A program made the position numbers and the translations under genes. Below are positions 128-14,361 of a stretch of DNA of 14,488 nucleotides, piece by piece. The stretch's first letter is position 1; each line of letters begins with the position of its first letter. The stretch lies in IMG/VR virus record IMGVR_UViG_3300028883_000184; one strand, 5' to 3'. Source of the stretch: a virus. The notes under the pieces are model-generated. The model was not told the DNA's origin and made no database searches. It saw only the letters and a program-made list of their open reading frames with translations.

Positions 128-216
128 CGCGAGGGGAATTACCCAACCCCTCTATAGAACGGCCTTTAAACGCCCATATAATGATTATTAAATCTGAGGG
201 ATAATAATTAGAGGTT

Positions 217-288: not shown

Positions 289-930
289 TTAGGAATTTGA
301 GTATAGAAGGATACATCTACAGTTCACACACTCCGAGGCGGGACCATCCCCTGGGAACATTATCCCTCCCGAGAAGGGTTCGTTTAGGTGTCTTTTCTCT
401 CCATCTCGTTTTTTGTGAGATTTCCGGGAGGCTCCATCGGATACGCAACACCAAATTTTGTATTTGTAACGGCCTTTTCCGAGCTCGTTTTCGAGCTTAG
501 AACCGTTAAGAGCTATGATTCGCTCCGTTCTTATGATCCGCTTTATTCGAGCTGGAGAGCATATGTACGAGTTCTTCAGTTTGCGAGCTGCCTCTTTTGC
601 CTCTATCGGCCAGTTTTGAAGCACAAATTTCTTTATAAATCGCATGTCGCTGTCGGTCATCTGACCGACTAACCGGTTCATGCCATGAGCTCTAAAGTAT
701 TTCCTGGCCGATTCATGAGGAAGCTCATCGATTAGTAGAGGCCAGAATCGAGCGTTCTTTTTAGCTAGCAGCCTTCGAGCTGGCTTCTCGAAAGTCGCAA
801 GGGTGACGAAGTAGTTAGGGCCTAGTCGTGAAGCTTCGGCTCGAAGATCGAAATAACCGGTCCTTCTCATCAAAGAGATGATAGGAGCCACCACCGAGGC
901 CAGAACCTCCAACCCCTCGTCTTCGATCAT
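289..930 (-). CDS. Head morphogenesis protein, Mu gpF / SPP1 gp7-like
   Basis: 213-aa ORF. The C-terminal half shows the family pattern as I remember it: IIRTERIIALNGSK, W..VSDGASRKSH..RDGE, then PGDGPASECVNCRC. ATGA start/stop overlap with the upstream gene at 927..930. TAA stop. Confidence 0.8.
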   Translation of the reverse strand: MIEDEGLEVLASVVAPIISLMRRTGYFDLRAEASRLGPNYFVTLATFEKPARRLLAKKNARFWPLLIDELPHESARKYFRAHGMNRLVGQMTDSDMRFIKKFVLQNWPIEAKEAARKLKNSYICSPARIKRIIRTERIIALNGSKLENELGKGRYKYKIWCCVSDGASRKSHKKRDGEKRHLNEPFSGGIMFPGDGPASECVNCRCILLYSNS

Positions 931-1286
931 ACTATTCTACCTATCCGAGGCCGAACCATTCTAAGGCCCTCTTGTGAGTCTTTACGGAGCGATTCCAGTT
1001 TAGCCGAAGTATCTCGAACCCTCGTATCTTGAGTTGGAGTGAACCTCCCTTTTTGATAAGATCCTTCGACCCGGTGACGGATCCTATCGGCGTAAGACCT
1101 GTAAGAATAGAAGGCAGCCAGCGAAAGGATAGCGTCATCTTTCAGAGCCTCGGACACATCAGACCGGGCCACAGCGTCGACTTTAGTTTGAGCTCTGGAG
1201 AGGTTTAGCTCGAATACGTCATCGGCTAGATCGCCTTCCTCTTGGATGTTTATGGCCGTCCTAACCTGGGAGATGGTTACCGTCAT
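927..1286 (-). CDS. Putative head-tail connector/adaptor (gp6-like)
   Basis: 119-aa ORF downstream of the capsid gene. GGAGGAT Shine-Dalgarno just upstream of the ATG at 1286. Size, position and an acidic N-terminal segment (ISQVRTAINIQEEGDLADD) fit small head-completion proteins. No diagnostic motif was recognised. Confidence 0.5.
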   Translation of the reverse strand: MTVTISQVRTAINIQEEGDLADDVFELNLSRAQTKVDAVARSDVSEALKDDAILSLAAFYSYRSYADRIRHRVEGSYQKGRFTPTQDTRVRDTSAKLESLRKDSQEGLRMVRPRIGRIV

Positions 1287-1318
1287 CGAGGATCCTCCAT
1301 AAAAATAGACGGTAGAGC

Positions 1319-1681
1319 CTACAGAGAGTAGGCCTCTATGGTTCCCGCGATTGTGGCGCCTGCGATGTCGATATGGAGCGTACCATCAGACTGAACGAAC
1401 CGGGCCGTCTCGATAGGTCCTAAAACCACTTCTGCAGCACCCCCCTCGCACTCATAGGCCAAATCACCTAGAGCCCTTCTGAAAGCTGGTTCTGAGGTTC
1501 CCGCTTTGATGGTGATACTATCCTCTTCTGTGGCTGCACTGATATGGAAAACCAGAACCACCTTCTCAAAGTCAGACCCGGCGGCTATGACGTGATCGCT
1601 TCCTTTGTCGATTGCATCGGCGGTTTTAGCTTCGACGAAGGCTCCTGAGAGTTCATTAACGATAATTTCAGATCGTACCAT
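1319..1681 (-). CDS. Hypothetical capsid-module protein (decoration or head-associated candidate)
   Basis: The ORF track starts at a TTG (1687). The ATG at 1681 lies 7 nt after a GAGGTGG Shine-Dalgarno and is the likelier start. Placed directly after the major capsid gene. Function unknown. Confidence 0.6.
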   Translation of the reverse strand: MVRSEIIVNELSGAFVEAKTADAIDKGSDHVIAAGSDFEKVVLVFHISAATEEDSITIKAGTSEPAFRRALGDLAYECEGGAAEVVLGPIETARFVQSDGTLHIDIAGATIAGTIEAYSL

Positions 1682-1692
1682 TATCAACCACC

Positions 1693-2547
1693 TCAGGACT
1701 TGTTACAGGTTAAGACGCAAAGCGCAGCCGGATCAATGACCTTAGCACCATAGCAATGCAAGCCCCTGAGTGCATCGGCGAAGTATTTCTCAGGCCTATA
1801 AGCCTCGGTCTCGTTCACGCTATCGGCAAAGGTGCACGCTCTAGAAGTCCCGGCGAGGATCTTATAGAGAGTCCCATCAGTGTTAGGTACGTTGTTGGAC
1901 TGCAGAAGGTCAAAGCCGTATAGCCTGCCTAACTGACCGTTTTTCATAACCCCCTCAATTGCAGACCAAGCCGGGTTAGTAACGCTAGAATCTTTCATGA
2001 GCTTGACCGTTAACCACGGTGGAAGGATCAGGAACCTACCTTCAGAAGGCACGTTAGCTTCGTCTAGGGCTTGTTTCACGGCTAAGAACTCATCGGTTAC
2101 GTCGTCAGTTTCTCCGTCAAAGGTCTTCGGGCTGTCATCAGAGCCCACAGCGTTACCGGCTTGGGCGGCCATGATTCCAGCGATATGTTGATCGGCTAGA
2201 TCTGAGAGCTGATAACCCGCGTCTTGGGTGGCGCTCTGCATAAGGGCTACATTCATTTGGGCCTTATCGATGTCCTCGACCCTGAAATTAAAGCTCTTGC
2301 TTTGAGTGATGTTCAGGACGGTTTGGGCGTCGTCTAACTCTTCAGGATCGCCTAAGCCGGTGGACTTGTCATAATTGTCTATGGTTATAGGGCCGTGGCT
2401 GGTAATCCTTACAGTGTCCCCCTTACTCTTGATTTCGCCTTCGTAATCACGGTTGATAACTCCAGTTTGACCGTAAACTAGGGCTTTCTGGAGGCTCTGG
2501 AATATTTGAGCGCTCCAAATCTCGCCTATAAAATTTGTTATTGCCAT
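1693..2547 (-). CDS. Major capsid protein (HK97-fold, P22-coat-like family)
   Basis: 284-aa ORF directly after a scaffold gene. The N-terminus FIGEIWSAQIFQSLQKALVYGQTGVINRDYEGEIKSKGDTVRI matches the N-terminal signature I associate with P22-coat-type capsid proteins. GGGGT ribosome-binding site upstream. Confidence 0.85.
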   Translation of the reverse strand: MAITNFIGEIWSAQIFQSLQKALVYGQTGVINRDYEGEIKSKGDTVRITSHGPITIDNYDKSTGLGDPEELDDAQTVLNITQSKSFNFRVEDIDKAQMNVALMQSATQDAGYQLSDLADQHIAGIMAAQAGNAVGSDDSPKTFDGETDDVTDEFLAVKQALDEANVPSEGRFLILPPWLTVKLMKDSSVTNPAWSAIEGVMKNGQLGRLYGFDLLQSNNVPNTDGTLYKILAGTSRACTFADSVNETEAYRPEKYFADALRGLHCYGAKVIDPAALCVLTCNKS

Positions 2548-2562
2548 TTTCTAACCCCCGGC

Positions 2563-3039
2563 TCATATTTTACTGAGTGAGCCATCTTTCAACTGTTGCG
2601 AGATCTGATCCCAGTTTTCAGTTATCTCGGAGGAGGACATGGATTTGATATCGGCCCTTGTGAACGGTTTCGTCGTATCCTGAGGCGGGTTAGTTCTCGA
2701 ACCCACAGAAGGACCCGGCCCTAAGCTTTCGGATAGCGTTTTGGCGTCCGTCTCCAGCTCCTCTTTAGATTCCCCCTGGAGACGTTCGGCCATGGCTTCT
2801 GGAAGGTTGTGAGCCTTCGCCACCTCGATTTTAAGGGCTTTCCTCAGACTATCCTTATTCTCATCAAGCTTCGTTTTGAGCTTTTCATTTTCTGCTTTTG
2901 CAGCGTCTAGATCGGCCTTAATTTGGTCATAATCGGCGTATTTCGCCTTCTCTTTGGCCAACCTTTCCCCAACAATCCGATCTACATCGGCTTGGGTGAA
3001 TTTCTTTTCATCGTCCTGGGTAATTTTAAATCCCCCCAT
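2563..3039 (-). CDS. Scaffolding protein (DUF4355-type)
   Basis: 158 aa, highly charged, with predicted coiled coil (KADLDAAKAENEKLKTKLDENKD). FTQADVDRIVGERLAKEKAKY resembles the conserved opening of DUF4355 scaffolds. Lies immediately upstream of the capsid gene. Confidence 0.75.
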   Translation of the reverse strand: MGGFKITQDDEKKFTQADVDRIVGERLAKEKAKYADYDQIKADLDAAKAENEKLKTKLDENKDSLRKALKIEVAKAHNLPEAMAERLQGESKEELETDAKTLSESLGPGPSVGSRTNPPQDTTKPFTRADIKSMSSSEITENWDQISQQLKDGSLSKI

Positions 3040-3107
3040 TTCCCAAAAAACACGATCTTTACGGCGTCGTTTATCCTAATTGTATAATTAATTCGTCTCT
3101 ATTATAA

Positions 3108-3129
3108 ATAGTTTATCACAAAAAGGACA
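3108..3129 (-). promoter_or_regulatory. 22-bp element ATAGTTTATCACAAAAAGGACA (copy 1), abutting a TATA-like box upstream of the scaffold/capsid genes
   Basis: Exact copy of 7310..7331. On the minus strand it reads TGTCCTTTTTGTGATAAACTAT, followed at once by TTATAAT. Lies 69-90 nt upstream of the scaffold ATG (3039). Confidence 0.6.
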
Positions 3130-3157
3130 AATATTTGTATTAGCATCGCATTGTATA

Positions 3158-3199
3158 AGTAATAGTAATCATAGTAATCATAGTAATCATAGTAGTATA
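3158..3199. repeat. 9-bp tandem repeat AGTAATCAT: 3 exact copies (3164..3190) with degenerate flanking copies
   Basis: Read directly: AGTAAT AGTAATCAT AGTAATCAT AGTAATCAT AGTAGTATA. Sits in the divergent intergenic region between the scaffold gene and the toxin cassette. Confidence 0.85.
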
Positions 3200-3229
3200 G
3201 ATGCAGAAAAGTGAGAGGTGTGTAGATAA

Positions 3230-3382
3230 ATGGCAAAACCACTGCGATTGGGCTATAAAATGACCTTAGAAGAGTCAAAAGCTTTCGCGGAAATTGACCG
3301 TGGGTATGTGGTTACTCAGCGGCAGAAAGATCTAGTCAGGAATGCCAAAAAATCCTGCAGCACGCACCCAATTAAATTTTAA
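3230..3382 (+). CDS. Unlisted 50-aa ORF, candidate antitoxin/partner of the GNAT toxin
   Basis: Translated by hand: MAKPLRLGYKMTLEESKAFAEIDRGYVVTQRQKDLVRNAKKSCSTHPIKF. GAGGTG lies 10 nt upstream of the ATG at 3230. Its TAA stop shares one base with the GNAT ATG (TAATG at 3380..3384). It is below the 60-aa cutoff of the supplied track. Confidence 0.6.
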   Translation: MAKPLRLGYKMTLEESKAFAEIDRGYVVTQRQKDLVRNAKKSCSTHPIKF

Positions 3383-3942
3383 TGGCATTCCCTATCAAAG
3401 ATTTAAAGATAGAAGCCCTTAGTGAGTCGCATGCTTCTGCGCTCAATAGTTTTACTTGTGGCACCTCCGCAGATTTAGATGATTTTATACAAAATGATGC
3501 TATATATGAGCAAGGACGACGATTAAATAGAACGTTCTTATTCTTTTATAAAAAAACACTTATTGGTTATGTCTCTTTAACCTCCGACCTTACAAACAAG
3601 GTGCGTTTCTATAAAGCCGATCTTGTGCAGAAAAAGGACAGTGATAGTCCTGTTTACACATCCTTCCCATGTGTTTTAATTGGAAGATTAGCAGTTAAAG
3701 ATGGTTATCATCGCAAGGGAATCGGAGAGTTCATAGTAACAAGAGCAATAGGAATTGTGTTGGAGAATGTTTCAAAATTTATCGGCGTTAGGTTTGTCAC
3801 AGTCGATCCAATAAACGAAGACGCGCGAAAATTCTATAAAAATAAATGCGGTTTTGTTGATATGATTGGTGTCAAAGTTGACGAGGAACCTGGTAGGATG
3901 TATATTAACCTGGAGAAAATCTGTGGAAATATGGGGCAGTAG
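3382..3942 (+). CDS. GNAT-family N-acetyltransferase, TacT/AtaT-like type II toxin candidate
   Basis: 186 aa. FTCGTSADLDDFIQNDA resembles the N-terminal F.CG...L..FL motif of TacT-like toxins. LIGRLAVKDGYHRKGIGEFIV is the acetyl-CoA motif A (R/Q-x-x-G-x-G). ARKFYKNKCGF is motif B with the conserved Tyr. Confidence 0.85.
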   Translation: MAFPIKDLKIEALSESHASALNSFTCGTSADLDDFIQNDAIYEQGRRLNRTFLFFYKKTLIGYVSLTSDLTNKVRFYKADLVQKKDSDSPVYTSFPCVLIGRLAVKDGYHRKGIGEFIVTRAIGIVLENVSKFIGVRFVTVDPINEDARKFYKNKCGFVDMIGVKVDEEPGRMYINLEKICGNMGQ

Positions 3943-3957
3943 ACGATTCGTCTTTTG
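3941..3957 (+). terminator. Hairpin plus T-run just after the GNAT stop codon
   Basis: AGACG-ATT-CGTCT (3941..3953) followed by TTTTG. It overlaps the TAG stop (3940..3942). The stem is only 5 bp. Confidence 0.4.
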
Positions 3958-4013
3958 TCTTAAAGGCCACGTGTACATTATATAACATCGCCCGGATTAA
4001 ATATCACTTAAAG

Positions 4014-5417
4014 TTAAATTACCGACAAAGCCTCATCGTTTCGCTCTTCTTTGATCGCTTCAAGTTCGGTGTCTAGGTCTGTCTCTGTGGCGTCCTCATC
4101 TAACCGGGCCAAAGCACCCCTAGTCGAAGTGAGGTTTGCCGTTTTACGTGTGGCTTCCACTTGTGCATTTTCGAGCGGATCCTTAGGCAATGCAGACCGC
4201 CACTCGAGGGCCACGTTGGTTAGTTTAGAAGAGCCCGACAGCCTCGAGGATACCTCCAGCTCAGCACATAGCCTAAGAGCCTCCAGGATCGGTTTTTTGA
4301 TCCTCAACCTAAGCCGGTTCACCTTAGCTAAGGTCGGGATAGCTAACCGTTTGAGAGCTGAACCGCTCTCTGCCAACCCGTTCTTAGTGTCTCCGAGAAG
4401 GGCCGGGCTGATTTCTCCAACGGCCATAAGCTCGGATTTGATCTCTTCGATTTGAGAGAAGTTGGCCGCTAGGGAGGCATCCCATGTGAGATATTGAGGA
4501 AATTTTTGATCCTCGTCAACCCCGAAGTACCGCCCGCCTCCTATGGTAAGAACGGGTTCGCCTGTGTATGGATCGGTCTCGATGACGTCGGACGGTCCCG
4601 CTATGTTAGGCGCACTGAACTTATCGAGCGTCTTAGAGGTCCTTATAAGCCTCTTTTCGAGCTCTTCGACCAGCCCCTCGAGATCTCCATAATCATCGAG
4701 CCCGTACACGCCGTTAGACTGAAGCGAGCCATGGAGCGGTATTATCAGGAAATCTTTAACCCCCGTCTCCAGTTCAGGCTTAAGATCTTTGAACCTCTCT
4801 AGGGTAGAAAGATAGATCTCTTTGCTGATGGTTCCCCCTCCTGAGAGCTCATAGAGTCGGTTCTCGATGGTCCCTTTTTTGTGGATCTCCAGCCTCAAAA
4901 AGTCGGTTTTCACGTGATCTACGAATTCAGTCCATGAATAAGCTAAAACGTGAGCTAATACCTGAGAGCCGTCGTCTGGAGAGACCACCGGGAACCAAAA
5001 TTTAGGGTTCACTCGTTCGATAATCCCTCTTTGGTCGAACCTCACTTTGAGGACGGCATTCCCAAATTTGAGAACGTCTCCTATGGAGTCGTATATGAGT
5101 TGGTGGTAGTCGTTAGCCTCGATGATCCTATCAACGGTTTGTTGCTCATCGGCGGTGATCTTCGGAGGCTGACCGACTGCAAGATCGCTTATTAGCGTTG
5201 TCGATCGCTTGAACCAGTTAACCGCTATATGAACGATGTTAGGGGCATCCACAGGATTGAGTTTAGGGTCCTCTACAAGATTGAGGCCCGGAAAAGTACG
5301 GTCGTGGTCTCCCTCAAATAAGAGGATGGTTCGATCGTAACGTCTCAGTCGGTTTGTTTCGTCCCTCGGTGGCCATGGTTTACCCTGGCCTAAAAAGTCA
5401 AAATTAGTAAGAACCAT
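4014..5417 (-). CDS. Portal protein
   Basis: 467-aa ORF directly after TerL, with AGGAGGGTG Shine-Dalgarno. The N-terminus GKPWPPRDETNRLRRYDRTILLFEGDH resembles the conserved start of SPP1 gp6-type portals. Acidic C-terminal tail. Confidence 0.8.
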   Translation of the reverse strand: MVLTNFDFLGQGKPWPPRDETNRLRRYDRTILLFEGDHDRTFPGLNLVEDPKLNPVDAPNIVHIAVNWFKRSTTLISDLAVGQPPKITADEQQTVDRIIEANDYHQLIYDSIGDVLKFGNAVLKVRFDQRGIIERVNPKFWFPVVSPDDGSQVLAHVLAYSWTEFVDHVKTDFLRLEIHKKGTIENRLYELSGGGTISKEIYLSTLERFKDLKPELETGVKDFLIIPLHGSLQSNGVYGLDDYGDLEGLVEELEKRLIRTSKTLDKFSAPNIAGPSDVIETDPYTGEPVLTIGGGRYFGVDEDQKFPQYLTWDASLAANFSQIEEIKSELMAVGEISPALLGDTKNGLAESGSALKRLAIPTLAKVNRLRLRIKKPILEALRLCAELEVSSRLSGSSKLTNVALEWRSALPKDPLENAQVEATRKTANLTSTRGALARLDEDATETDLDTELEAIKEERNDEALSVI

Positions 5418-5419
5418 AT

Positions 5420-6634
5420 TTACACCCTCCTTCGTTGTTGTGGGTTTTGAGGGGAGGAGCCGGAATTTTTGAAGATGCGATTAGCTATGTATCGTAACGT
5501 GTCGACCAAATCGTCGTTATCTTTGATCGGCTTGTCTTCGCCTCTCTCGGTGGCTTTTGGATCCCATCGGTAACCCTCCATCTCCTCGATGAGCATAGGA
5601 CAGGCAGGCCCAACAATGTAGAGGAGCCCTGTCTCAAAAGCGGTAGATGCGCGAGATATCCCATCTACGACGGCGTTATCGGCCTTCTTAACTCTTTGAA
5701 ATCCGTCTTTTTGGAGCTGGAGCCGGAACGATTTGGCCGATGGGTCAACGTCTATAGAGGACGGGAATTTGCCGTCTAGAAATGTTCTAAGATCTTTGGA
5801 CAGCTCGGAGTTTGTGAGGTCGGATTTGCGGTATTCTCCAGCGATGTACCACGCCCGTCCGATCCGATACGCTTTGAGGAAGCCTGTAGGGTGAGTGGCT
5901 CCCCAATCAACAGCTACCCGGATAGCTTCGACCCTACCATCTGGAAGCCTCGGTACGACGTGAACGGCCCGGTCGAAGTTACGATAAACGGCGCCTTCGG
6001 CGGCTACCCATTCGCCTAAGATGTACCGTTGATAGAATAGGCCCGTATACTGCCTTTTGAGTTCGGCCACGTAAACGGGATCTAGCCAAGGATTATCGGT
6101 TAGCTTGAAATGCCAGCTCTTTAGATCGAGCTCTTCTTCTCGATCCAACCAGCTTTTTTTGAGGTAATGTGAAGGGTTCCCGGGGTTGCTCGTTGCGAAC
6201 AATTGAGCGTCTTTCTCCGAGAGCCTCGAGATGAGCATGTCCCAAAAGCTCATAGGTACTAAGGATGCCTCGTCGACGTAAGCACCGCCTAAGGTTAGGC
6301 CTGCGATCTTCGAGTAGGCCGCTTCATCGTTAGCCCCTTCGACCATGATCTTACGGCCGTAAATTGAGACGGTCTTCAAGGATCGTTTGTAAACGTAGTT
6401 CTGAGAACCTACCAGCTTAGAGATAGGCAAAAGAACGTTCCTCTCGAGGCTGGTTTGGGTTTTGCCCACCATCAAAAGGTTGTATTCGCTCGGGGTTTTC
6501 AAAAGGTACTTCAACCATCGGACGTTTGCGCCTACTGTTTTAGCAGACCTTACCGCACCATGGCTTATGTTGACCCTCGCATCGGAGTTAAGGCAAAAGT
6601 CCCGCTGTTTGCCTACCGGAATTTGGAAGGTCAC
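5420..6634 (-). CDS. terL: Terminase large subunit (PBSX/XtmB, Terminase_3-like)
   Basis: 404 aa. Walker A HGAVRSAKT, Walker B GGAYVDEAS, coupling motif ATSNPG. Nuclease acidic residues in VAVDWG and DNDDLVDTLRY. GTG start preceded by GGAGGG, overlapping the TerS stop (GTGA). Confidence 0.92.
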   Translation of the reverse strand: MTFQIPVGKQRDFCLNSDARVNISHGAVRSAKTVGANVRWLKYLLKTPSEYNLLMVGKTQTSLERNVLLPISKLVGSQNYVYKRSLKTVSIYGRKIMVEGANDEAAYSKIAGLTLGGAYVDEASLVPMSFWDMLISRLSEKDAQLFATSNPGNPSHYLKKSWLDREEELDLKSWHFKLTDNPWLDPVYVAELKRQYTGLFYQRYILGEWVAAEGAVYRNFDRAVHVVPRLPDGRVEAIRVAVDWGATHPTGFLKAYRIGRAWYIAGEYRKSDLTNSELSKDLRTFLDGKFPSSIDVDPSAKSFRLQLQKDGFQRVKKADNAVVDGISRASTAFETGLLYIVGPACPMLIEEMEGYRWDPKATERGEDKPIKDNDDLVDTLRYIANRIFKNSGSSPQNPQQRRRV

Positions 6635-7041
6635 GTTCTACCCTCCATAGAATCGAAAAGCTTTGAGATTTCGCCGCCCTTGTCTCCGCCTAGATCTTCG
6701 TCTTCGAGGCGTCTCTTATCTATTCCTATAGCCACGCCTAAAAACCAGTCTTTCAAGTCTCGAGGGGTGTCGATTTCTGGCAACAGATGACGGGCTTTAT
6801 CCAAACCCTCTCCTACCAGCTTGATACGGGCTTCGCTTGCATAACAGGATTTGGCGATAGCTGCATTTTTCGTAACCGACCGGTCGCCTAAATCAAGTCC
6901 GTTTCGTCTCGCAACGTCTATAATCGTTGATTTAGCTCGGTTGAACTTCTTTGCAGCTTGGCGGGTGCTCATTCCAGCTTCGAGAGCTTCACATATGGCC
7001 GCTTCTTCTTCCTCGGAGACAGGCCCGCCTTTCGATGCCAT
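6631..7041 (-). CDS. terS: Terminase small subunit candidate (N-terminal HTH)
   Basis: 136 aa, immediately upstream of TerL and translationally coupled to it. HTH-like segment MSTRQAAKKFNRAKSTIIDVARRNG. Assignment rests on position and architecture. Confidence 0.7.
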   Translation of the reverse strand: MASKGGPVSEEEEAAICEALEAGMSTRQAAKKFNRAKSTIIDVARRNGLDLGDRSVTKNAAIAKSCYASEARIKLVGEGLDKARHLLPEIDTPRDLKDWFLGVAIGIDKRRLEDEDLGGDKGGEISKLFDSMEGRT

Positions 7042-7047
7042 GGTTCT

Positions 7048-7278
7048 TTAATGCCGGAAAAGAGCCGGGTTCTCAGTTTCGGGAAGGCGATACAAAAGCG
7101 CGTTCGGACGGCCTCCAGGTCGGGAAGCTAAAAGATATCGGGAATGAGCCTTATAGACCGCTCCTTTGATCGAAAGGGCTGAGGAGTGTTCCCCTTCGGC
7201 CTTAAGCCGTTCTACGATCTCCATCGAGGAGACTTCTTCATCGGGTTGAACTACTGAGACGACACGTTCGACTAGCAT
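7048..7278 (-). CDS. Small wHTH-like protein, first gene of the packaging operon
   Basis: The track starts at a TTG (7296). The ATG at 7278 lies about 27 nt downstream of a TATATATA box (7304..7311), so a leaderless start at 7278 looks likelier. MEIVERLKAEG ... GGRPNALLYRL looks like helix plus wing. Confidence 0.55.
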   Translation of the reverse strand: MLVERVVSVVQPDEEVSSMEIVERLKAEGEHSSALSIKGAVYKAHSRYLLASRPGGRPNALLYRLPETENPALFRH

Positions 7279-7309
7279 ACAAAGTTTAGATTTCAATTAA
7301 GACATATAT

Positions 7310-7331
7310 ATAGTTTATCACAAAAAGGACA
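7310..7331 (-). promoter_or_regulatory. 22-bp element ATAGTTTATCACAAAAAGGACA (copy 2), abutting the TATA box of the packaging operon
   Basis: Exact copy of 3108..3129, in the same orientation relative to the downstream genes. On the minus strand it is followed directly by ATATATG. Confidence 0.6.
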
Positions 7332-7372
7332 GTTTATCTCATCAATTATCCTAAAAGGATATGAGGGGTTCT

Positions 7373-7746
7373 TGATATTATATAGTCATTTTTATAGCTA
7401 CTACTTCGCGGCGCGAAGTGCGAAGTAGTCTGCGAGAGAGGAGAGATCTGAGGGAAAAAGAAGTTCTATGAAAATAAGGTTGATTTGTACTAAACTTTTT
7501 TTTCAGTAGTAGTATTACTACTGTAATACTACTACTACATAGTACTACCACTATCCTGCCTTACTATATTAGTATACTATATAAGTGTTACTATACAATA
7601 TTGTATAAATCTGTACATTAAGACTGTTACAAATTTTCTTGTAAATATGTCTAAAATCTAGGGGGTTTGAGAGAGCCCCTCTCCCCCAGAGAACTTCGCA
7701 CTTCGCGCCGCGAAGTAGTAGCTATAAAAATGACTAGATAATATCA
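7373..7746. repeat. 54-bp inverted repeat pair (7373..7426 and 7693..7746; one mismatch, inner 44 bp perfect) flanking a 266-bp AT-rich spacer
   Basis: The reverse complement of 7383..7426 (TAGTCATTTTTATAGCTACTACTTCGCGGCGCGAAGTGCGAAGT) equals 7693..7736 exactly. Nine further bases match beyond a single mismatch (7382/7737). The spacer holds overlapping palindromes of AGT/ACT triplets at 7504..7540. The right arm covers the last codons and stop of the 229-aa gene. Confidence 0.95.
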
Positions 7747-8423
7747 GAACGGTTGAGGATTAAGCGATATCCTCTCTTTCCAGGTCGGATATCTTCCTTA
7801 ATCTCGAATCGTCCATCTTTCTTTAGATGCTTTACGAAACGATACAACTTGTCTTTAGAGAGCTTTCCGTCTTTCCCTCTCATATCGGGGAAATTCTTCT
7901 TACAAACATCGGTAACATGCATGGTGATCCCATCTTTATGTGGATATTCTTCAAGATGGTAAACCATCGTGTTGTATATCGCATCGATTCGATCTTTTGT
8001 GTCTTTTGATGGTGCTGGATTGCGCCTCCGCTCGCGCTCTCGATACGCCATCCTTCTGAGATGCATATTATTAAGTGTATTATTCGTGCAACTGTTGGCT
8101 AAGTCAGAATCGCCGTATATGTCAATATGTTTGGGCAAATCTGCAGCCGTTGGGTCGTCGCTTTGACGCGCATACGAAAACCGATCATATGCATCAAAAT
8201 CACACCATTGTAGATATGTGAATACAGCTTCAAGCTGAGTTTTTATCCCCCTATTTTCCAGCCGAAGCTTCTCGTTTTCTTGCCTCAGCTCTTCGATTGC
8301 TTCCTTCATCTCATCGATTGCATCGAGGGCATATATGAGACGCTCTTCGACATCAAAAACAGCACCATGAGGGCCTACATGAGGCGCCGAAACATTTATT
8401 ACGTTACAAGTATCTCTATTCAT
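7734..8423 (-). CDS. Coiled-coil plus C-terminal wHTH-like protein, function unknown
   Basis: 229 aa. GGAGTGA Shine-Dalgarno 9 nt upstream of the ATG at 8423. Heptad-like EMKEAIEELRQENEKLRLENRGIK, basic RERERRR linker, and C-terminal LSKDKLYRFVKHLKKDGRFEIKEDIRPGKRGYRLILN. Confidence 0.7.
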   Translation of the reverse strand: MNRDTCNVINVSAPHVGPHGAVFDVEERLIYALDAIDEMKEAIEELRQENEKLRLENRGIKTQLEAVFTYLQWCDFDAYDRFSYARQSDDPTAADLPKHIDIYGDSDLANSCTNNTLNNMHLRRMAYRERERRRNPAPSKDTKDRIDAIYNTMVYHLEEYPHKDGITMHVTDVCKKNFPDMRGKDGKLSKDKLYRFVKHLKKDGRFEIKEDIRPGKRGYRLILNRSDII

Positions 8424-8865
8424 CGCTAAATCACTCCGGATTTAGTTAAACCGCCCCCTCAACTCGGTGATCGAGCACCGGGTTGGGGACCTCATTCTAA
8501 TATCAATTCAAATCTTTATTGCGGCTTTAATTATTGATCAGACCCATACTTCATATATTTACCCATATTCTACTCCATATTCGATCTAATTTAGAGGATA
8601 ATCCTCCAATATCGTAACTGATAAGAGCATCCTATAACCTAATACGAGATAAGAGTAAAAATCTAATGTGATGCATAGTTCACGGCTCTAGATGCTGTAT
8701 TCAGAATTTAAAGAATTAATAACTTCATTAAATCGAAAACTACTTAAAATAAGACGCTAATTGAGGTCTAACGTGACCGGCAAAGTGTCCATAGATTCCT
8801 TAAACTAGGAGGTGCTAAGGTCTTTTTTTCTTGGATATGCGATCACGTGGGCGGTAACGTGGCCT

Positions 8866-8905
8866 TACTTCGGCCGGGGGCGGTAAACCCTATAGAACCG
8901 AAGTA
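8866..8905 (-). terminator. Stem-loop downstream of the RHH gene
   Basis: TACTTCGG (8866..8873) pairs with CCGAAGTA (8898..8905). The 24-nt loop contains a nested GGG/CCC pair. Lies 22 nt past the stop at 8927. No oligo-T follows on the minus strand. Confidence 0.3.
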
Positions 8906-8926
8906 CTGACCATTCTATGTTTTTAA

Positions 8927-9319
8927 TTAGTCAACGACTGAGGGGGTTTCCCTTTTGTTTTTCGTTGGGCGATTCTCCAAGCTTTTTACCATTGCCTCAA
9001 GCTCATCTAAATCATCGAATCCCGAAATAAGCGTCTTTACGTGATTCTCATCCAATCCAAGCGCAAGCAGTCTCTTCCGAAGCCCCTCTAAAATCAAAGC
9101 ATTTTCTTTTTCTTCCTCTTCAAAACGTTGAAGCCCCATGACCAACAACTCCCCACCAACCGTAGTCAGTGTGGAGTTATATTCATACGCTATATCTTCC
9201 AGTCGTTTGTGATATTCGTGGGGGACACGTACAGTTATTCTAACCGAGGCCCCCTCAATCCTAACGAAGCGGTTTTCACTACCCCGTATATCTTTTTGAG
9301 ACATAATACTACTTTGCAT
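8927..9319 (-). CDS. Ribbon-helix-helix (CopG/Arc-like) DNA-binding protein
   Basis: RITVRVPHEYHKRLEDIAYEYNSTLTTVGGELLVMGL fits a beta-strand/helix/helix RHH fold. The track start at 9322 is TTG. ATGs at 9319 and 9304 are alternatives, so the start is uncertain. Confidence 0.75.
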   Translation of the reverse strand: MQSSIMSQKDIRGSENRFVRIEGASVRITVRVPHEYHKRLEDIAYEYNSTLTTVGGELLVMGLQRFEEEEKENALILEGLRKRLLALGLDENHVKTLISGFDDLDELEAMVKSLENRPTKNKRETPSVVD

Positions 9320-9415
9320 CAATAGTATTTAATCTTGATGCACAGCATAATAGTTGATGTGCATCCAATATTGTTGATACGTATAGCGTGTATGCACAGC
9401 ATGCGTGCATGCAAT
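9313..9415. promoter_or_regulatory. Operator-like palindrome cluster upstream of the RHH gene
   Basis: TGCATCAA (9315..9322) pairs with TTGATGCA (9335..9342). GATGCACA (9337..9344) pairs with TGTGCATC (9358..9365). ATGCACAGCAT is repeated at 9338 and 9392. There are two GCATGC palindromes near 9399..9414. Confidence 0.5.
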
Positions 9416-10652: not shown

Positions 10653-11495
10653 ATGATCAATAGAGACATTATCGATGTATTAAATTTTAGAGAGGATATA
10701 TCACCATTCCTCGTGCATTTAACTAAAGATGGGCCCATTGACGAATCACCAAACAAACAAACATCAAAAGAAGCTCTGGAGAAAATTATCGAAAACCAAG
10801 AACTTGTTTGCGCTAAATGCTTACTCACTAGACGGGACAAAAACGGAAATGAGATCGGAAAATATAACATGAGCGTTGCTCGTTTCGGTATGTATACTCG
10901 GAATATGGATGACGAAAAACAACGCCAATTATTTAGCGCAATCAGCTTTACAGAGACGCCACTAAACGAAATTCAATCCTTAATTGATATCAAGGGCCGT
11001 AATGTGGATCTCAGACAATATGGGCTTGTATTTCACAAGAACAAACTAGCAGATAAAGGTGTAGGTCCTGTTTTGTATTTAAACAATACCAATAAAAATA
11101 ACAAAGACGAGCTTATTTACAAACTTTGTAAAATTTTAATAACAGAGTGTGACGGGGAACATGAAGATGTGGCTAAAGAACTTTTTCCGATGATCTCAGT
11201 ATTTGGAAACCAAATCACGCCATATGGAAAGAATGGGACAAAACTAAAAAATTACGACTTCTTATGGGAGAGGGAGTGGCGTTATCCCTATGCAAAAGGA
11301 CATCTTAAGTTTGATCGTGACGACCTGTTTATTGGATTATGTCCAGATAATGAAATTGATAAGTTTGAGGAGTTAGCAAATACTTGTAAATTGAAAGATC
11401 TTAAATTTGTAGATCCTTACAGAAATCTGAAATATTACGCAAAAAAATTAATTACAGAGAGAAAGAATGCAGGTATAGAAGCTTCTGTAGTGTAA
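10653..11495 (+). CDS. AbiGi-like abortive-infection family protein (putative)
   Basis: 280 aa with an AGGA ribosome-binding site. The motif series FLVHLTK, ISFTETPL, YGLVFHKNKLADKGVGPVLYL and WEREWRYP matches my memory of the AbiGi family layout (H-x-T, F-T-E/D, YG-h-x-F, E-R-E-W-R). The region is visibly more AT-rich than the structural genes. Confidence 0.65.
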   Translation: MINRDIIDVLNFREDISPFLVHLTKDGPIDESPNKQTSKEALEKIIENQELVCAKCLLTRRDKNGNEIGKYNMSVARFGMYTRNMDDEKQRQLFSAISFTETPLNEIQSLIDIKGRNVDLRQYGLVFHKNKLADKGVGPVLYLNNTNKNNKDELIYKLCKILITECDGEHEDVAKELFPMISVFGNQITPYGKNGTKLKNYDFLWEREWRYPYAKGHLKFDRDDLFIGLCPDNEIDKFEELANTCKLKDLKFVDPYRNLKYYAKKLITERKNAGIEASVV

Positions 11496-12498: not shown

Positions 12499-12948
12499 AT
12501 GTCAACAGATACATTAGTCGTACCAGAATATGAAGCTATCGAACCGTCCTCTACCTTCGAGCGCTTAGTCATGGCCCGTTTGGAGGCTCTTGAAGCTGAA
12601 AATCGAGAGCTAAAGGACATTGTGGAAGAGCAACAGAAAGAGATAGATGCCCTTCGAGAAGAGATAGGCAGAGAGCGGGCTTTTGATCGAAAACGCATTT
12701 CTAAGCTCGAAACCCGCAAGCAACAGACCGGTCCCAAATCTCGTGAACAAATTAGTGAACTAATGAACTATCTCCAAGATTGCCCTAACCACATCACGCC
12801 CCTCGAGGGAGCACGCCACCATCTAGGTGTGAGTAAAAATCGTTTAAGCAATCTGTTAGCCTCGCCGGATGCTGAAAATCAGTTTCTGCTAATCAAGAAT
12901 CCTAATGATCACCGCAAACGGCTAATTAAACTTCGGCCACAAATTTAG
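12499..12948 (+). CDS. Coiled-coil plus C-terminal wHTH-like protein, same architecture as the 229-aa ORF
   Basis: 149 aa. ARLEALEAENRELKDIVEEQQKEIDALREEI coiled coil, then ISELMNYLQDCPNHITPLEGARHHLGVSKNRLSNLLA ... FLLIKNPNDHRKRLIKL. GGTGA Shine-Dalgarno upstream. Confidence 0.7.
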   Translation: MSTDTLVVPEYEAIEPSSTFERLVMARLEALEAENRELKDIVEEQQKEIDALREEIGRERAFDRKRISKLETRKQQTGPKSREQISELMNYLQDCPNHITPLEGARHHLGVSKNRLSNLLASPDAENQFLLIKNPNDHRKRLIKLRPQI

Positions 12949-12956
12949 GATTACAA

Positions 12957-12973
12957 TAGTTCACAATGAACTA
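12957..12973. repeat. 17-nt palindrome TAGTTCACAATGAACTA (copy 1)
   Basis: 7-bp stem TAGTTCA/TGAACTA with a 3-nt loop, 9 nt after the stop of the 149-aa gene. Near-identical to 13130..13146. Confidence 0.85.
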
Positions 12974-13129
12974 AATTAATTCTCGATTATGTTTAAGTAC
13001 TGAAAACAAAAAGCGTGATTATTGCTCTTTGGGGTATGCTACTTACTTAGGGATATGGATATATATCAATCAATAGTATATATACTCATCATTATGTGGT
13101 TATCTCCGTTTCATTCTCGCAAAATAGTT

Positions 13130-13146
13130 TAGTTCACAGTGAACTA
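13130..13146. repeat. 17-nt palindrome TAGTTCACAGTGAACTA (copy 2)
   Basis: Same stem as copy 1, with a central A-to-G difference. Lies 31 nt past the stop of the RelE-like gene (13177, minus strand). Confidence 0.85.
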
Positions 13147-13176
13147 TTATTTGTCGACAACACTCTAAAATTTATT

Positions 13177-13488
13177 TTACTTGTTGTATTTCGCTACTAT
13201 GGAAGGTGCTTTTTTGTATACTTTATCGTGATGATCTACATATATAAATGTGATAATATTATCATCGAACGTGTATATAATAACATACGGGTCAACGTGC
13301 GAACCGCGAGCATGTTTAAGATCGTGGCGTTTTGGATCGCCAATTTGTGGATCCGATACTATCTGATCAATCTTTCCAAGTAGACGATCTTTTAAGGCCC
13401 TGTCCTTCTTAGTTAGCTTATTGAATTGCTTATCAAATTCGATGGTACTTCTATATTCATATCTCGCAGAATCTAATGGACGGGACAT
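13177..13488 (-). CDS. RelE/ParE-superfamily type II toxin
   Basis: 103 aa. IEFDKQFNKLTKKDRALKDRLLGKIDQIVSDPQIGDPKRHDL and the C-terminal PYVIIYTFDDNIITFIYVDHHDKVY match the RelE/ParE layout (F..-KL, then a Y-h-h-Y beta core ending H/R-x-x-x-Y). Confidence 0.8.
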   Translation of the reverse strand: MSRPLDSARYEYRSTIEFDKQFNKLTKKDRALKDRLLGKIDQIVSDPQIGDPKRHDLKHARGSHVDPYVIIYTFDDNIITFIYVDHHDKVYKKAPSIVAKYNK

Positions 13489-13508
13489 GTTATCAATAAG
13501 AGAATAGG

Positions 13509-13679
13509 TTATAGGTTGCGTAGATGATCCAAGAATTCTTTTTTGTTAGTGAAAGCTTTCACCTGGCCAGTTTTGTATTGTTCGATTCCACGCTTCAGCC
13601 CCTCCTCGAACTCCGTCACCCTTGCATCGCCTTTATCCACATAATTGGCCTTGACCGGGTGAACCTTTGCACTCGCCAT
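13509..13679 (-). CDS. Unlisted 56-aa ORF, candidate antitoxin of the RelE-like toxin
   Basis: Hand translation: MASAKVHPVKANYVDKGDARVTEFEEGLKRGIEQYKTGQVKAFTNKKEFLDHLRNL. GAGGT lies 8 nt upstream of the ATG at 13679. It ends 20 nt before the toxin ATG. The plus-strand 75-aa ORF at 13524..13751 is its antisense shadow. Confidence 0.6.
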   Translation of the reverse strand: MASAKVHPVKANYVDKGDARVTEFEEGLKRGIEQYKTGQVKAFTNKKEFLDHLRNL

Positions 13680-13761: not shown

Positions 13762-14265
13762 CTAACAACTTGTCGATCTATTCTCCATTAGGTCAAAGGT
13801 ATAACGCCGCGCCCTTTCCCCGTCCCGTCTTACGTTCTTAGCTTCGAGTCCCTCTGCTTTCATCAACCGTCCGAGTGGTCTACTTTCCATCCCAACAGCT
13901 TCTGCAATCACCGAAACGGGGGGTTCTATGCCTTTGCTGTGGAAGTCTTGGATCATTTTGATCGCCTTTTCGACGACGCTTTTGTCTGTCTTAGGTAAGG
14001 CCTTTCGTCGTGTCTTCTGTAAGGGTGTCTTCTGTAAGGATGTGTCTTTAGTTCTTACAGAAGACTTTTCTTTGTCTTCTGTAAGGCTTGCTGGAAGGTT
14101 TTTCCCGATGTACTTTTTCCTGGTTTTGCCACCTTCCCACCAGTAAGCATACCAATAAGGGCCATGGCCTGCGCCCGTTGCGCATTTCTTGCATCGCTCT
14201 TTTCCACAGAAGCTAAACTCCTTCTTGTATAGCCGCCCTGTCGCGGGATCTTTGAGCGAGTCCAT
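13762..14265 (-). CDS. Zinc-ribbon-like N-domain plus C-terminal wHTH protein, candidate iteron-binding initiator/regulator
   Basis: 167 aa. FCGKERCKKCATGAGHGPYWYAYWWEGGKTRKKYIGK is a CxxC...HGPYWY...K-YIG motif that I recall from an uncharacterised family (possibly DUF6788, to be confirmed). C-terminal VSVIAEAVGMESRPLGRLMKAEG ... RRDGERARRYTF is wHTH-like. The gene lies next to the iteron array and contains inverted iteron copies. Confidence 0.8.
   Translation of the reverse strand: MDSLKDPATGRLYKKEFSFCGKERCKKCATGAGHGPYWYAYWWEGGKTRKKYIGKNLPASLTEDKEKSSVRTKDTSLQKTPLQKTRRKALPKTDKSVVEKAIKMIQDFHSKGIEPPVSVIAEAVGMESRPLGRLMKAEGLEAKNVRRDGERARRYTFDLMENRSTSC
14012..14085. repeat. Iteron core copies inside the 167-aa coding sequence
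   Basis: GTCTTCTGTAAGG at 14012..14024 and 14027..14039 (15-nt spacing, inverted relative to the terminal array). CTTACAGAAGAC at 14054..14065 faces GTCTTCTGTAAG at 14074..14085, a perfect 12-bp inverted repeat with an 8-nt spacer. Confidence 0.9.
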
Positions 14266-14344: not shown

Positions 14345-14361
14345 TTCGACGAGTTGCAAGT

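What the first reader, a model, noticed from the sequence alone, without database searches (positions are those of the whole stretch)
7373..7746. 54-bp near-perfect inverted repeats enclosing a 266-bp AT-rich, palindrome-rich spacer
Seen: 7373..7426 and 7693..7746 are reverse complements, with the inner 44 bp perfect and one mismatch. Each arm contains the sub-palindrome CTTCGCG-N-CGCGAAG. The spacer is markedly AT-rich and carries overlapping AGT/ACT-triplet palindromes (7504..7540). The right arm encodes the last four residues and the stop of the 229-aa gene. The unit sits just upstream of the packaging-operon promoter element (7310..7331). A 44-bp exact inverted match cannot arise by chance in 14 kb.

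Possible interpretations (inference):
- An origin-like structure, with inverted recognition boxes flanking an unwinding element as in archaeal origins.
- A MITE-like insertion. I saw no clear target-site duplication.
- An invertible or cruciform switch controlling late-operon expression.
- A long RNA hairpin.
Basis: partly seen in the sequence, partly recalled or inferred. Interest (0 to 1): 0.65.

Follow-up and report, generated by a model that had tools for sequence, protein, structure and literature searches.

The report
Gene-linked, origin-like inverted repeat
The inverted repeat is real. It is an enlarged copy of a conserved DNA element that, in mobile elements of the methane-producing archaeon Methanothrix, always sits directly after the gene for a small DNA-binding protein, and it is built like an archaeal replication origin, although that function is inferred and untested.

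Summary
The arms are 7373-7441 and 7678-7746 (69 nt, 93% complementary). The inner 54 nt carry one mismatch and 44 nt are exact. The same sequence appears in three independent assemblies.

The window is a circular element of about 14.4 kb from Methanothrix. It has capsid, portal and terminase genes but no tail genes and no replication enzyme.

The 229-aa gene that ends inside the right arm belongs to an unannotated family of coiled-coil plus winged-helix proteins. In about 60 loci every family member is followed, within -13 to +27 nt of its stop codon, by an inverted repeat around an AT-rich core. These loci include plasmid pH6Ac of M. harundinacea, integrated elements and other capsid-only elements.

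Each arm holds three half-sites (here ACTTCGC), arranged -> <- <- ... -> -> <-. The half-site sequence changes from element to element, but all six copies within one element match.

The window also carries a second, canonical module (12499-13148).

In related elements the slot upstream of the terminase holds either this module or a D5/PrimPol primase-helicase. The spacer is the least stable duplex in the genome.

Best reading: a replication origin paired with its own binding protein (about 0.45). The MITE, invertible-switch, pac-site and RNA readings are poorly supported. A transcriptional operator remains a serious rival.

The parts
7373..7441 (.). Left arm of the inverted repeat, on the side distal to the gene and facing the packaging operon
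   Evidence: 69 nt, 93% complementary to 7678-7746; the first 54 nt have 1 mismatch
7678..7746 (.). Right arm of the inverted repeat; it overlaps the stop codon and the last 3 codons of the 229-aa gene
7403..7426 (.). Half-site cluster of the left arm: ACTTCGC (7403-7409), GCGAAGT (7413-7419), GCGAAGT (7420-7426). This is a dyad plus one extra half-site on the inner side
   Evidence: 7 copies in the window, 6 in the arms, 1.6 expected. The same -> <- <- layout is seen in canonical relatives
7693..7716 (.). Half-site cluster of the right arm: ACTTCGC (7693-7699), ACTTCGC (7700-7706), GCGAAGT (7710-7716)
7434..7455 (.). Purine/G-rich string directly inside the left half-site cluster (GAGAGAGGAGAGATCTGAGGG)
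   Evidence: Counterparts lie inside the arms of L015, L011 and L066. [quoted passage not shown]
7660..7692 (.). G/C-string region directly inside the right half-site cluster (AGGGGGTTTGAGAGAGCCCCTCTCCCCCAGAGA); partly complementary to 7434-7455
7461..7660 (.). AT-rich core; the least stable duplex of the whole window
   Evidence: z = 3.05-3.2 at 60, 100 and 200 bp
7505..7536 (.). Central 14-bp hairpin or palindrome built of AGT/ACT triplets
   Evidence: L066 has an analogous triplet-repeat palindrome, (CAA)n/(GTT)n, and L015 has an (AGT)n run
7734..8423 (-). 229-aa coiled-coil plus C-terminal winged-helix protein; inferred binding partner of the arms (module A)
   Evidence: family profile E = 1.8e-24
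7305..7331 (-). Promoter-like 27-nt repeat (TATA-like box about 26 nt upstream of the ATG at 7278-7280) heading the packaging operon. It lies outside the inverted repeat and is adjacent context, not part of the unit
   Evidence: 96% identical to 3103-3129
12499..12948 (+). Second family member in the same genome (149 aa), of canonical type (module B)
   Evidence: hhalign 98.7%, E = 1.5e-16
12955..13148 (.). Canonical-size inverted-repeat element of module B (arms 12955-12991 and 13112-13148; half-site AGTTCAC)
   Evidence: I15; nhmmer E = 2.4e-16

Best explanation
The unit 7373-7746 is the cis-acting partner of the gene that runs into it. That gene encodes a 229-aa coiled-coil plus winged-helix protein. 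Dimers of the protein are inferred to bind the three ACTTCGC half-sites in each arm: a dyad plus one extra half-site on the inner side. This would build two mirror-image protein-DNA complexes that face a 236-nt AT-rich core, the easiest DNA in the genome to melt. The most likely function is a replication origin with its own origin-binding protein, which opens the core and recruits the host replisome, since the element encodes no primase, helicase or polymerase. The window also carries a second, canonical module (12499-13148) with a different half-site. This suggests two independent origin-initiator pairs, for example one for maintenance and one for replication linked to packaging. Shown here: the repeat, the half-site layout, the strict linkage of gene and element, the change of half-sites together with the protein across elements, the low duplex stability, and the alternative occupancy of the slot by primase-helicase genes. 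Inferred, not shown: protein binding, DNA melting, and origin function itself.
For: (1) Linkage of gene and element. The protein family has 114 cluster representatives at E <= 1e-3. Of the 39 metagenome loci, 36 showed the inverted repeat directly, starting -13 to +27 nt from the stop codon with an AT-rich spacer; one more was found by nhmmer, one contig was too short, and one (L056) gave a repeat at the match but no complete gene call. The same holds in L009, L011-L013, L015-L018, L059, L061-L066 and in plasmid pH6Ac of M. harundinacea 6Ac. A DNA profile of the canonical element finds one element beside each family gene wherever the downstream DNA is held (one second gene copy, L030 224-733, has none) and no element without a gene in 450 kb. 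(2) Layout. Canonical elements and the window share the arrangement -> <- <- [core] -> -> <-. The half-site sequence differs between elements (CCGTAAC, CTGTAAC, CCGGTTC, CCGAGAC, CCGCGTA, AGTTCAC, ACTTCGC, and others), but all six copies within one element agree. The third half-site is a direct repeat, so hairpin formation cannot explain it. (3) The repeat follows this protein, not the small terminase. L016 and L018 have closely related elements and winged-helix domains that are 88% identical, but their TerS-like proteins are only 55% identical. That is the same level as window versus L018 (58%), whose repeats are unrelated. (4) Slot occupancy. The position upstream of the TerS-like gene holds a D5/PrimPol primase-helicase in L009, L013 and L014. 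It holds a module of this kind in the window, L015, L011, L016/17, L018, L059 and L066. In L014 (TerL 79% identical) both flanks are homologous to the window and only the segment 7041-9400 is replaced. (5) The complete circular elements L016 (11.56 kb) and L011 (14.3 kb) have no recognisable replication enzyme and no iteron array. This module is their only conspicuous repeated non-coding element. (6) The core is the least stable duplex of the window. (7) The heptamer occurs nowhere else in the window except once inside a capsid gene, so it does not mark promoters. (8) The architecture matches tested archaeal origins: an AT-rich stretch flanked by inverted boxes next to the initiator gene, with a G-rich inverted repeat just inside the boxes. 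Examples are Halobacterium (33-bp repeat around 189 bp, PMC1447603) and Haloarcula oriC1 (PMC3936714).
Against: No experiment or read-depth profile was available, so origin activity is untested. The protein has no ATPase, helicase or nuclease domain and no known relative. pH6Ac carries the module together with a 1124-aa protein that has a weak Prim-Pol match (E = 5.5e-4, below the Pfam cut-off) and an 11-bp x7 iteron array. The array lies at the minimum of the cumulative GC skew and is an equally good origin candidate there. The window also has a 15-bp tandem array at its ends (8.5 exact copies at each end, with degraded copies beyond) next to a DUF6788 gene. Relatives that carry a primase-helicase still keep a canonical module, so the two are not strictly exclusive. 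GC skew gives no support: the window's skew maximum (7517) falls inside the spacer, which is terminus polarity by the bacterial convention, and no such coincidence appears in L016 or L011. Canonical cores contain conserved TATA-like motifs and a covarying hairpin, which could equally belong to a small transcription unit.
Confidence: 0.45

Rival explanations
1. Transcriptional control region. The protein acts as a repressor or activator. Its two site clusters loop the AT-rich core, which holds TATA-type promoters, and control the packaging/capsid operon downstream or an antisense RNA.
For: The protein resembles MarR-type winged-helix regulators as far as any fold match goes. Canonical cores carry nearly invariant TATA-like motifs, GGATATAGATATAATA and TAGTATATAAAC. 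In capsid-only elements the module lies directly upstream of the late operon, and in the integrated clade it lies upstream of a long co-directional gene row. The outer parts of the enlarged arms contain outward-facing TATA-like boxes such as GCTATAAAAATG. The module B half-site variant ATAGTTYA also occurs in the two 27-nt promoter repeats and upstream of the 229-aa gene, 7 matches against 1.3 expected.
Against: The sites lie downstream of the protein's own gene, not at its promoter, and ACTTCGC occurs at no other promoter. Module B and its counterparts in L028-L030 lie between convergent genes, with nothing downstream to drive. The late operon has its own promoter-like element outside the repeat. 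The ATAGTTYA excess rests on about three independent events.
Confidence: 0.2
2. Partition (centromere-like) site bound by a coiled-coil centromere-binding protein, as in single-protein plasmid stability systems.
For: The protein combines a coiled coil with a DNA-binding domain and has no enzymatic domain. The site lies directly after the gene, as parS and sopC do in P1 and F (my own knowledge). The module occurs in plasmids, integrated elements and virus-like elements alike, with element-specific site sequences, as incompatibility determinants do.
Against: No partition NTPase is encoded in the window. Centromeres do not need a conserved, easily melted core with a conserved hairpin. This reading does not explain why the module alternates with a primase-helicase in one slot.
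Confidence: 0.1
3. Packaging initiation (pac or cos) site recognised by the terminase, given its position just upstream of the small-terminase-like gene.
For: The position is directly upstream of the TerS-like/TerL genes in the window, L015, L011, L016-18, L059 and L066. The P1 pac site likewise has short repeats clustered on both sides of a cleavage region (my own knowledge).
Against: Repeat similarity follows the winged-helix protein, not TerS. The canonical module occurs in plasmid pH6Ac and in integrated elements that have no terminase or capsid genes. Relatives with a primase-helicase (L009, L013, L014) have the same terminase but no repeat at that position.
Confidence: 0.05
4. Structured RNA: the arms pair in a transcript (the 3' UTR of the protein's mRNA or a separate small RNA) to form a long hairpin around a structured core.
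For: Predicted folding is very strong. The canonical core has an 8-bp hairpin with at least 7 different stems and a conserved loop GTGAYGRTC. In its core, G.T pairs outnumber A.C pairs 8 to 3 on the gene's sense strand.
Against: There is no Rfam match in the window or in five relatives. The third, directly repeated half-site has no role in a hairpin. The arm mismatches in the window are not wobble pairs. Exact stems of 54-80 nt are unlike known structured RNAs. Covariation of a palindrome is also expected for a dyad protein site, and the G.T excess is not significant.
Confidence: 0.07
5. MITE-like insertion, or an invertible DNA switch.
For: Long terminal inverted repeats around a non-coding segment. 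The core of L011 matches that of L015 better when flipped (35 against 19). The matched stretch is only 26 nt of AT-rich, partly palindromic sequence, so this is weak evidence for a past inversion.
Against: The position relative to one gene family is fixed in about 60 loci, once per gene and never alone. There is no target-site duplication. The arm is absent from IMG/VR. No recombinase is encoded in the window. Orientation is the same in three assemblies and in 23 of 23 canonical loci.
Confidence: 0.03

Closest known systems
Archaeal chromosomal origins (oriC with inverted ORB boxes next to orc1/cdc6), for example the Halobacterium NRC-1 orc7 origin and Haloarcula hispanica oriC1
   Same: An AT-rich, easily melted stretch of about 150-270 bp flanked by inverted recognition boxes, directly beside the gene for the protein that is specific for those boxes. 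In the enlarged type a G-rich inverted repeat lies just inside the boxes. Several initiator-origin pairs with separate specificities can share one replicon (PMC1447603; PMC3936714).
   Different: The partner protein is a coiled-coil plus single winged-helix protein of about 130-230 aa with no AAA+ ATPase. No ORB-like sequence is present. The element follows the gene instead of preceding it. It is found on mobile elements, not chromosomes.
Origins of phage satellites and phages whose initiator binds repeats beside an AT-rich region (SaPI rep-ori; lambda O protein and ori-lambda); comparison from my own knowledge
   Same: Element-specific repeats on both sides of, or next to, an AT-rich segment. 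The origin lies at or just after the initiator gene and ahead of the packaging genes. Lambda O is, likewise, a dimeric winged-helix origin binder without enzymatic activity that relies on host replication proteins.
   Different: SaPI Rep is a helicase, and the lambda origin lies inside the O gene. There is no sequence or family relationship, and the host here is archaeal.
PlrA/ORF80 of Sulfolobus pRN-type plasmids and single-protein partition factors such as pSK1 Par (my own knowledge)
   Same: Small, non-enzymatic, zipper or coiled-coil DNA-binding proteins that are conserved across a plasmid/virus family and bind paired sites close to their own gene. The function of PlrA is also unresolved.
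   Different: Their sites lie upstream of the gene and do not flank a conserved AT-rich core. No sequence similarity was detected.

Membership tests
Archaeal Orc1/Cdc6-ORB origin | AT-rich unwinding region flanked by inverted recognition boxes | tested here: met
Archaeal Orc1/Cdc6-ORB origin | Adjacent initiator gene of the Orc1/Cdc6 AAA+ family | tested here: not met
   The adjacent gene encodes a coiled-coil plus winged-helix protein with no ATPase. Pfam finds no Orc/Cdc6 protein anywhere in the window.
Archaeal Orc1/Cdc6-ORB origin | ORB or mini-ORB consensus sequence | tested here: not met
   The core TTCCAGTGGAAAC (recalled from memory), with up to 3 mismatches, gives 2 hits against 4.3 expected, and neither is near the unit.
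Archaeal Orc1/Cdc6-ORB origin | Autonomous replication or replication initiation mapped to the site | not testable with these tools
   This needs an ARS assay, 2D gels or marker-frequency analysis.
MITE | Terminal inverted repeats around a short non-coding segment | tested here: met
MITE | Target-site duplication | tested here: not met
   The flanks GGGGTTCT| and |GAACGGTT contain no direct repeat that abuts the ends.
MITE | Many dispersed copies at unrelated sites | tested here: not met
   There is one element per family gene, always at its stop codon, and none alone in 450 kb. The arm 26-mer is absent from IMG/VR. Host genomes were not scanned for the arm itself.
Invertible DNA switch | Site-specific recombinase encoded nearby | tested here: not met
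   No invertase or integrase domain was found among the 15 window proteins scanned, which cover most of the larger ORFs.
Invertible DNA switch | Both orientations present in a population | tested here: inconclusive
   Three assemblies share one orientation, and the canonical cores are in the same orientation in 23 of 23 loci. Raw reads were not available, so a minority orientation cannot be excluded.
Iteron-type plasmid or satellite origin (Rep plus iterons) | Repeated initiator sites beside an AT-rich region, next to the initiator gene | tested here: met
Iteron-type plasmid or satellite origin (Rep plus iterons) | Initiator of a known Rep family (RepA WH1-WH2, Rep_3, a helicase-type Rep, or HUH) | tested here: not met
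   No match in Pfam, NCBIfam or PDB sequences. The fold search returned only generic winged-helix hits with E > 0.01.
Terminase recognition site (pac/cos) | Site co-varies with, and is recognised by, the small terminase | tested here: not met
   Element similarity follows the winged-helix protein, not TerS. The module is present in pH6Ac, which has no terminase.
Known structured RNA family (Rfam) | Match to a curated covariance model | tested here: not met

The most novel reading that the evidence does not exclude
The coiled-coil plus winged-helix family is a new class of archaeal replication initiator with no ATPase and no relation to Orc1/Cdc6 or to known Rep proteins. Each member would fire its own inverted-repeat origin by recruiting the host replisome. 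The gene-plus-element cassette of 0.7-1.1 kb would then be a portable minimal replicon exchanged among plasmids, integrated elements and capsid-only virus-like elements of Methanothrix.
Probability: 0.35. Interest if true: 0.78.

Novelty: new variant of a known kind. Interest (0 to 1): 0.6.

Why it matters
Methanothrix is a major acetate-consuming methane producer in digesters, wetlands and rice paddies. To my knowledge it has no genetic system, and its mobile elements are almost undescribed. A compact gene-plus-site cassette that recurs in its plasmids, integrated elements and capsid-only elements is an obvious candidate for a minimal replicon, or at least a maintenance module, for building shuttle vectors. 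If the protein is an initiator, it would add a non-Orc, non-Rep way of starting replication in archaea. It would also make testable how mobile elements recruit the archaeal MCM replisome. If it proves to be a regulator or a partition factor, the module still defines a family-wide specificity system of protein plus six matched half-sites, which is easy to test by footprinting.

Tried and rejected
These searches found nothing:
- GenBank phages by blastn with the region.
- IMG/VR with the arm 26-mer and with the 229-aa protein.
- A first protein search with the 229-aa sequence alone, which returned only itself. Relatives appeared only after I aligned the positional counterparts from TerL-related contigs.
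- Rfam and tRNA scans.
- The fold search of the AF2 model (pLDDT 65), which gave only generic winged-helix hits with E > 0.01.
- Pfam, NCBIfam and PDB sequence searches, which gave only coiled-coil noise, including the sub-threshold YabA hit.

These leads were examined and dropped:
- A contig (L005) that seemed to diverge inside the spacer simply ends in a Nextera adapter.
- Cumulative GC skew was uninformative. The window's maximum falls inside the spacer, but this is not reproduced in L016, L011 or L009.
- The recognition-helix sequence does not map one-to-one onto the half-site sequence. L053 and L055 share a half-site but differ in the helix, so co-variation is supported only at the level of whole modules.
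- The enlarged cores (window, L015, L011) show no detectable similarity to the canonical core profile.
- The literature searches found no description of pH6Ac functions or of these Methanothrix elements.
- The promoter/terminator scanner was not used, because it models bacterial sigma-70 signals and the host is archaeal.

Full report
**1.

The repeat finder reports arms 7373-7441 and 7678-7746: 69 nt, 93% complementary, 236 nt apart. The region folds far better than shuffled sequence, with z = -16 as DNA and -22 as RNA.

Each arm holds three copies of the heptamer ACTTCGC/GCGAAGT. Six of the seven copies in the window are in the arms, against 1.6 expected. The spacer is AT-rich. Segment 7461-7660 is the least stable duplex of the entire window at three window sizes. 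A 14-bp hairpin built of AGT/ACT triplets sits at 7505-7536.

The structure is identical in three independent k=141 assemblies. The k=31 Logan contigs break inside the exact arm, as expected for a repeat longer than k. An apparent divergence in contig L005 is a Nextera adapter.

**2. What the window is**

The window is the contig ena:ERZ27252253:k141_2981246. A circularly permuted contig from another sample reads through its ends, so the genome is circular (or terminally redundant) and about 14.37 kb long.

It encodes the following:
- a MuF-like protein, an HK97-type capsid protein, a scaffold protein, a portal, a large terminase and a small HTH protein in the small-terminase position;
- GNAT, AbiGi, ParE and DUF6788 proteins.

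It has no tail genes and no primase, helicase, polymerase or Rep.

The closest terminase relatives come from Methanothrix and Methanotrichaceae assemblies, many on contigs of 11.5-15 kb. The host is therefore an archaeon, and the element is a small capsid-only mobile element.

**3. The repeat belongs to a gene**

The 229-aa gene that ends in the right arm at first looked like an orphan. Terminase-related contigs, however, carry proteins of 200-217 aa at the same position, each followed by a long gap. Those gaps contain inverted repeats:
- L015: 80-nt arms around 237 nt;
- L011: 32-nt arms around 258 nt;
- L016: about 32-nt arms around 146 nt.

The four proteins align: coiled coil, a conserved NPxPSxxT motif, and a C-terminal winged helix. 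A profile search over 1.84 billion cluster representatives finds 114 members at E <= 1e-3, all 115-235 aa long. An AF2 model shows a long helix followed by a winged-helix domain. There is no match in Pfam, NCBIfam or PDB sequences, and no specific fold match.

**4. The linkage is close to universal**

Among 39 metagenome loci encoding a family member, 36 showed an inverted repeat starting -13 to +27 nt from the stop codon.
- The arms are 21-36 nt.
- The spacer is remarkably constant, mostly 147-163 nt.
- Spacer GC is lower than that of the locus.

One more locus (L041) was detected by nhmmer, one contig was too short, and one (L056) gave a repeat at the match but no complete gene call.

The same arrangement holds in five genome-collection loci, four from Methanothrix, Methanotrichaceae or Methanosarcinales assemblies and one from an assembly labelled Methanomicrobiaceae. 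It also holds in the 11,991-bp plasmid pH6Ac of the cultured strain M. harundinacea 6Ac.

A DNA profile of the canonical element finds one element beside each family gene wherever the downstream DNA is held, and none without a gene in 450 kb of fetched sequence. The one exception is a second gene copy in L030 (224-733), which has no element.

**5. Anatomy of the canonical element** (alignment A6)

- Each arm is a palindrome of about 20 bp (for example AAACCGTAAC-AT-GTTACGGTT) plus one further half-site on the inner side. This gives -> <- <- on the left and -> -> <- on the right.
- The core carries a nearly invariant CGCTAGCGGCTAAAA.
- It also carries an 8-bp hairpin with at least seven different stems and a conserved loop GTGAYGRTC.
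- It has two TATA-like blocks, GGATATAGATATAATA and TAGTATATAAAC, followed by a variable stretch.
- The invariant 13-mer GCTAGCGGCTAAA always lies on the gene's strand, in 23 of 23 loci.

Half-site sequences differ between elements, but all six copies within one element agree. The third half-site is a direct repeat of its neighbour, so it cannot be explained by hairpin pairing. This argues for recognition of double-stranded DNA by a dimeric protein.

The window's unit has the same half-site layout. It also has longer arms (about 30 extra outer nt), a G-rich inverted repeat just inside the half-sites, a larger core and a central triplet-repeat hairpin. This enlarged type recurs in L015, L011 and L066, where the half-site is TGTACA, a G-string lies inside the arms, and the hairpin is (CAA)n/(GTT)n. 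The window core is homologous to the L015 core in the same orientation, with a score of 39 against a null maximum of 29, although the arms are unrelated.

**6. A second module in the window**

The 149-aa protein at 12499-12948 is a canonical family member (hhalign 98.7%). It is followed by a canonical-size element at 12955-13148 with half-site AGTTCAC. Two modules per element also occur in L015 and L059; L030 has two family genes but an element after only one.

**7. Which function**

*MITE and invertible switch.* The fixed, gene-linked position and the constant orientation argue against both. There is no target-site duplication, no dispersed copy and no recombinase.

*pac site.* This reading is disfavoured.
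- L016 and L018 have closely related elements and winged-helix domains that are 88% identical, but TerS-like proteins that are only 55% identical.
- That is no closer than window versus L018 (58%), whose repeats are unrelated.
- The module also occurs in a plasmid and in integrated elements without packaging genes.

*Origin.* Several results point this way.
- (i) The slot upstream of the small-terminase-like gene holds either a D5/PrimPol primase-helicase (L009, L013, L014) or a module of this kind (window, L015, L011, L016/17, L018, L059, L066). In L014 both flanks are homologous to the window and only 7041-9400 is exchanged.
- (ii) The window, L011 and L016 encode no replication enzyme. L011 and L016 are complete circles in which this module is the only conspicuous repeated non-coding element.
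- (iii) The core is the easiest DNA in the genome to melt.
- (iv) The heptamer is absent from promoters.
- (v) The geometry matches tested archaeal origins: inverted boxes around an AT-rich stretch beside the specific initiator gene, with a G-rich inverted repeat just inside the boxes (PMC1447603; PMC3936714).

*Against the origin reading.*
- The protein has no ATPase, and no ORB-like sequence is present.
- pH6Ac and the window have tandem iteron arrays that are also origin candidates.
- Relatives carrying a primase-helicase keep a canonical module.
- GC skew is uninformative.
- The conserved TATA-like blocks and the hairpin would also fit a small transcription unit.

I therefore give the origin-plus-binding-protein reading about 0.45. 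A transcriptional operator or loop gets about 0.2, a centromere about 0.1, an RNA element about 0.07, a pac site about 0.05, and MITE or switch together about 0.03.

**8. Comparison and novelty**

The element works like an archaeal origin-initiator pair, or like a satellite or phage origin. It fails the membership tests for those families: no Orc1/Cdc6, no ORB, no known Rep. I found no description of the protein family or of the element in Pfam, NCBIfam, Rfam, PDB or the searchable literature. I rate it a new variant of a known kind: a specific DNA-binding protein with a paired-site, origin-like element. If origin function is confirmed, the upside is a new initiator class and a minimal replicon for an organism that, to my knowledge, has no genetic tools.

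Noticed in passing
window 289-7296 (minus strand); relatives L009, L011, L012/13, L015, L016/17: Circular Methanothrix elements of 11.5-15 kb encode capsid, scaffold, portal, MuF and terminase proteins but no tail genes. They may be archaeal capsid-forming satellites or very small viruses. A 2025 preprint states that only two archaeal satellites (pSSVi and pSSVx) had been described before it.
   Followed up: partly
window 1-181 and 14293-14488 (one array across the circular junction); inverted copies at 14010-14043: A 15-bp tandem array (GAAGACATCCTTACA) has 8.5 exact copies at each end of the window, with degraded copies beyond. The two ends overlap, and the true copy number is not resolved by the assemblies. 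It lies next to the DUF6788 gene, which itself contains two or three inverted copies. This is an alternative origin or centromere candidate.
   Followed up: partly
window 12499-13148: A second, canonical protein-plus-inverted-repeat module (149 aa; half-site AGTTCAC) lies convergent with a ParE toxin and its antitoxin. The same arrangement occurs in L028-L030 and L038.
   Followed up: yes
window 3103-3129 and 7305-7331; also 8675-8682 and 13124-13131: A 27-nt promoter-like repeat heads the packaging operon and the scaffold/capsid operon. Its TATA-like box lies about 26 nt before the ATG at 7278-7280, which suggests a leaderless transcript. The repeat contains ATAGTTTA, the same 8-mer as the extra half-site of module B (ATAGTTYA: 7 matches against 1.3 expected).
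   Followed up: partly
window 3162-3194: A 9-bp tandem repeat, ATAGTAATC x3.7, lies in the divergent promoter region between the scaffold operon and the GNAT gene. Its AGTA-rich character resembles the core of the studied unit.
   Followed up: no
canonical elements, alignment A6 columns 82-104 (for example L044 about 835-860): An internal hairpin has a covarying 8-bp stem (at least 7 different stems) and a conserved loop GTGAYGRTC, beside an invariant CGCTAGCGGCTAAAA. Its role (host factor site, primase signal or RNA) is unexplained.
   Followed up: partly
L060 (plasmid pH6Ac, NC_016637.1) 935-1024: An 11-bp x7 tandem array (GAGCAAAGTTC) lies in a 1.4-kb non-coding stretch upstream of a 1124-aa gene with a weak Prim-Pol match, and coincides with the minimum of the cumulative GC skew (856).
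   Followed up: no
L011 1974-2231 compared with L015 5033-5269: The core of L011 matches that of L015 better in flipped orientation (score 35 against 19). This hints that the segment between the arms has inverted at least once in evolution. The matched stretch is only 26 nt and AT-rich.
   Followed up: partly
L039-L054, L063 (contigs up to 141 kb): In one clade the module sits directly after a tyrosine integrase gene at the edge of integrated elements in Methanothrix-type chromosomal contigs. Some of these loci carry two integrase genes.
   Followed up: partly
window 10653-11495, 13177-13679, 3382-3942: The element carries cargo of defence or addiction type: an AbiGi-like protein, a ParE toxin with a small antitoxin, and a GNAT acetyltransferase placed between the portal and scaffold genes.
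   Followed up: no
L005 902-932: A public MEGAHIT contig ends in Nextera transposase adapter sequence (CTGTCTCTTATACACATCT...), a chimeric tail that mimics a breakpoint inside the spacer.
   Followed up: yes
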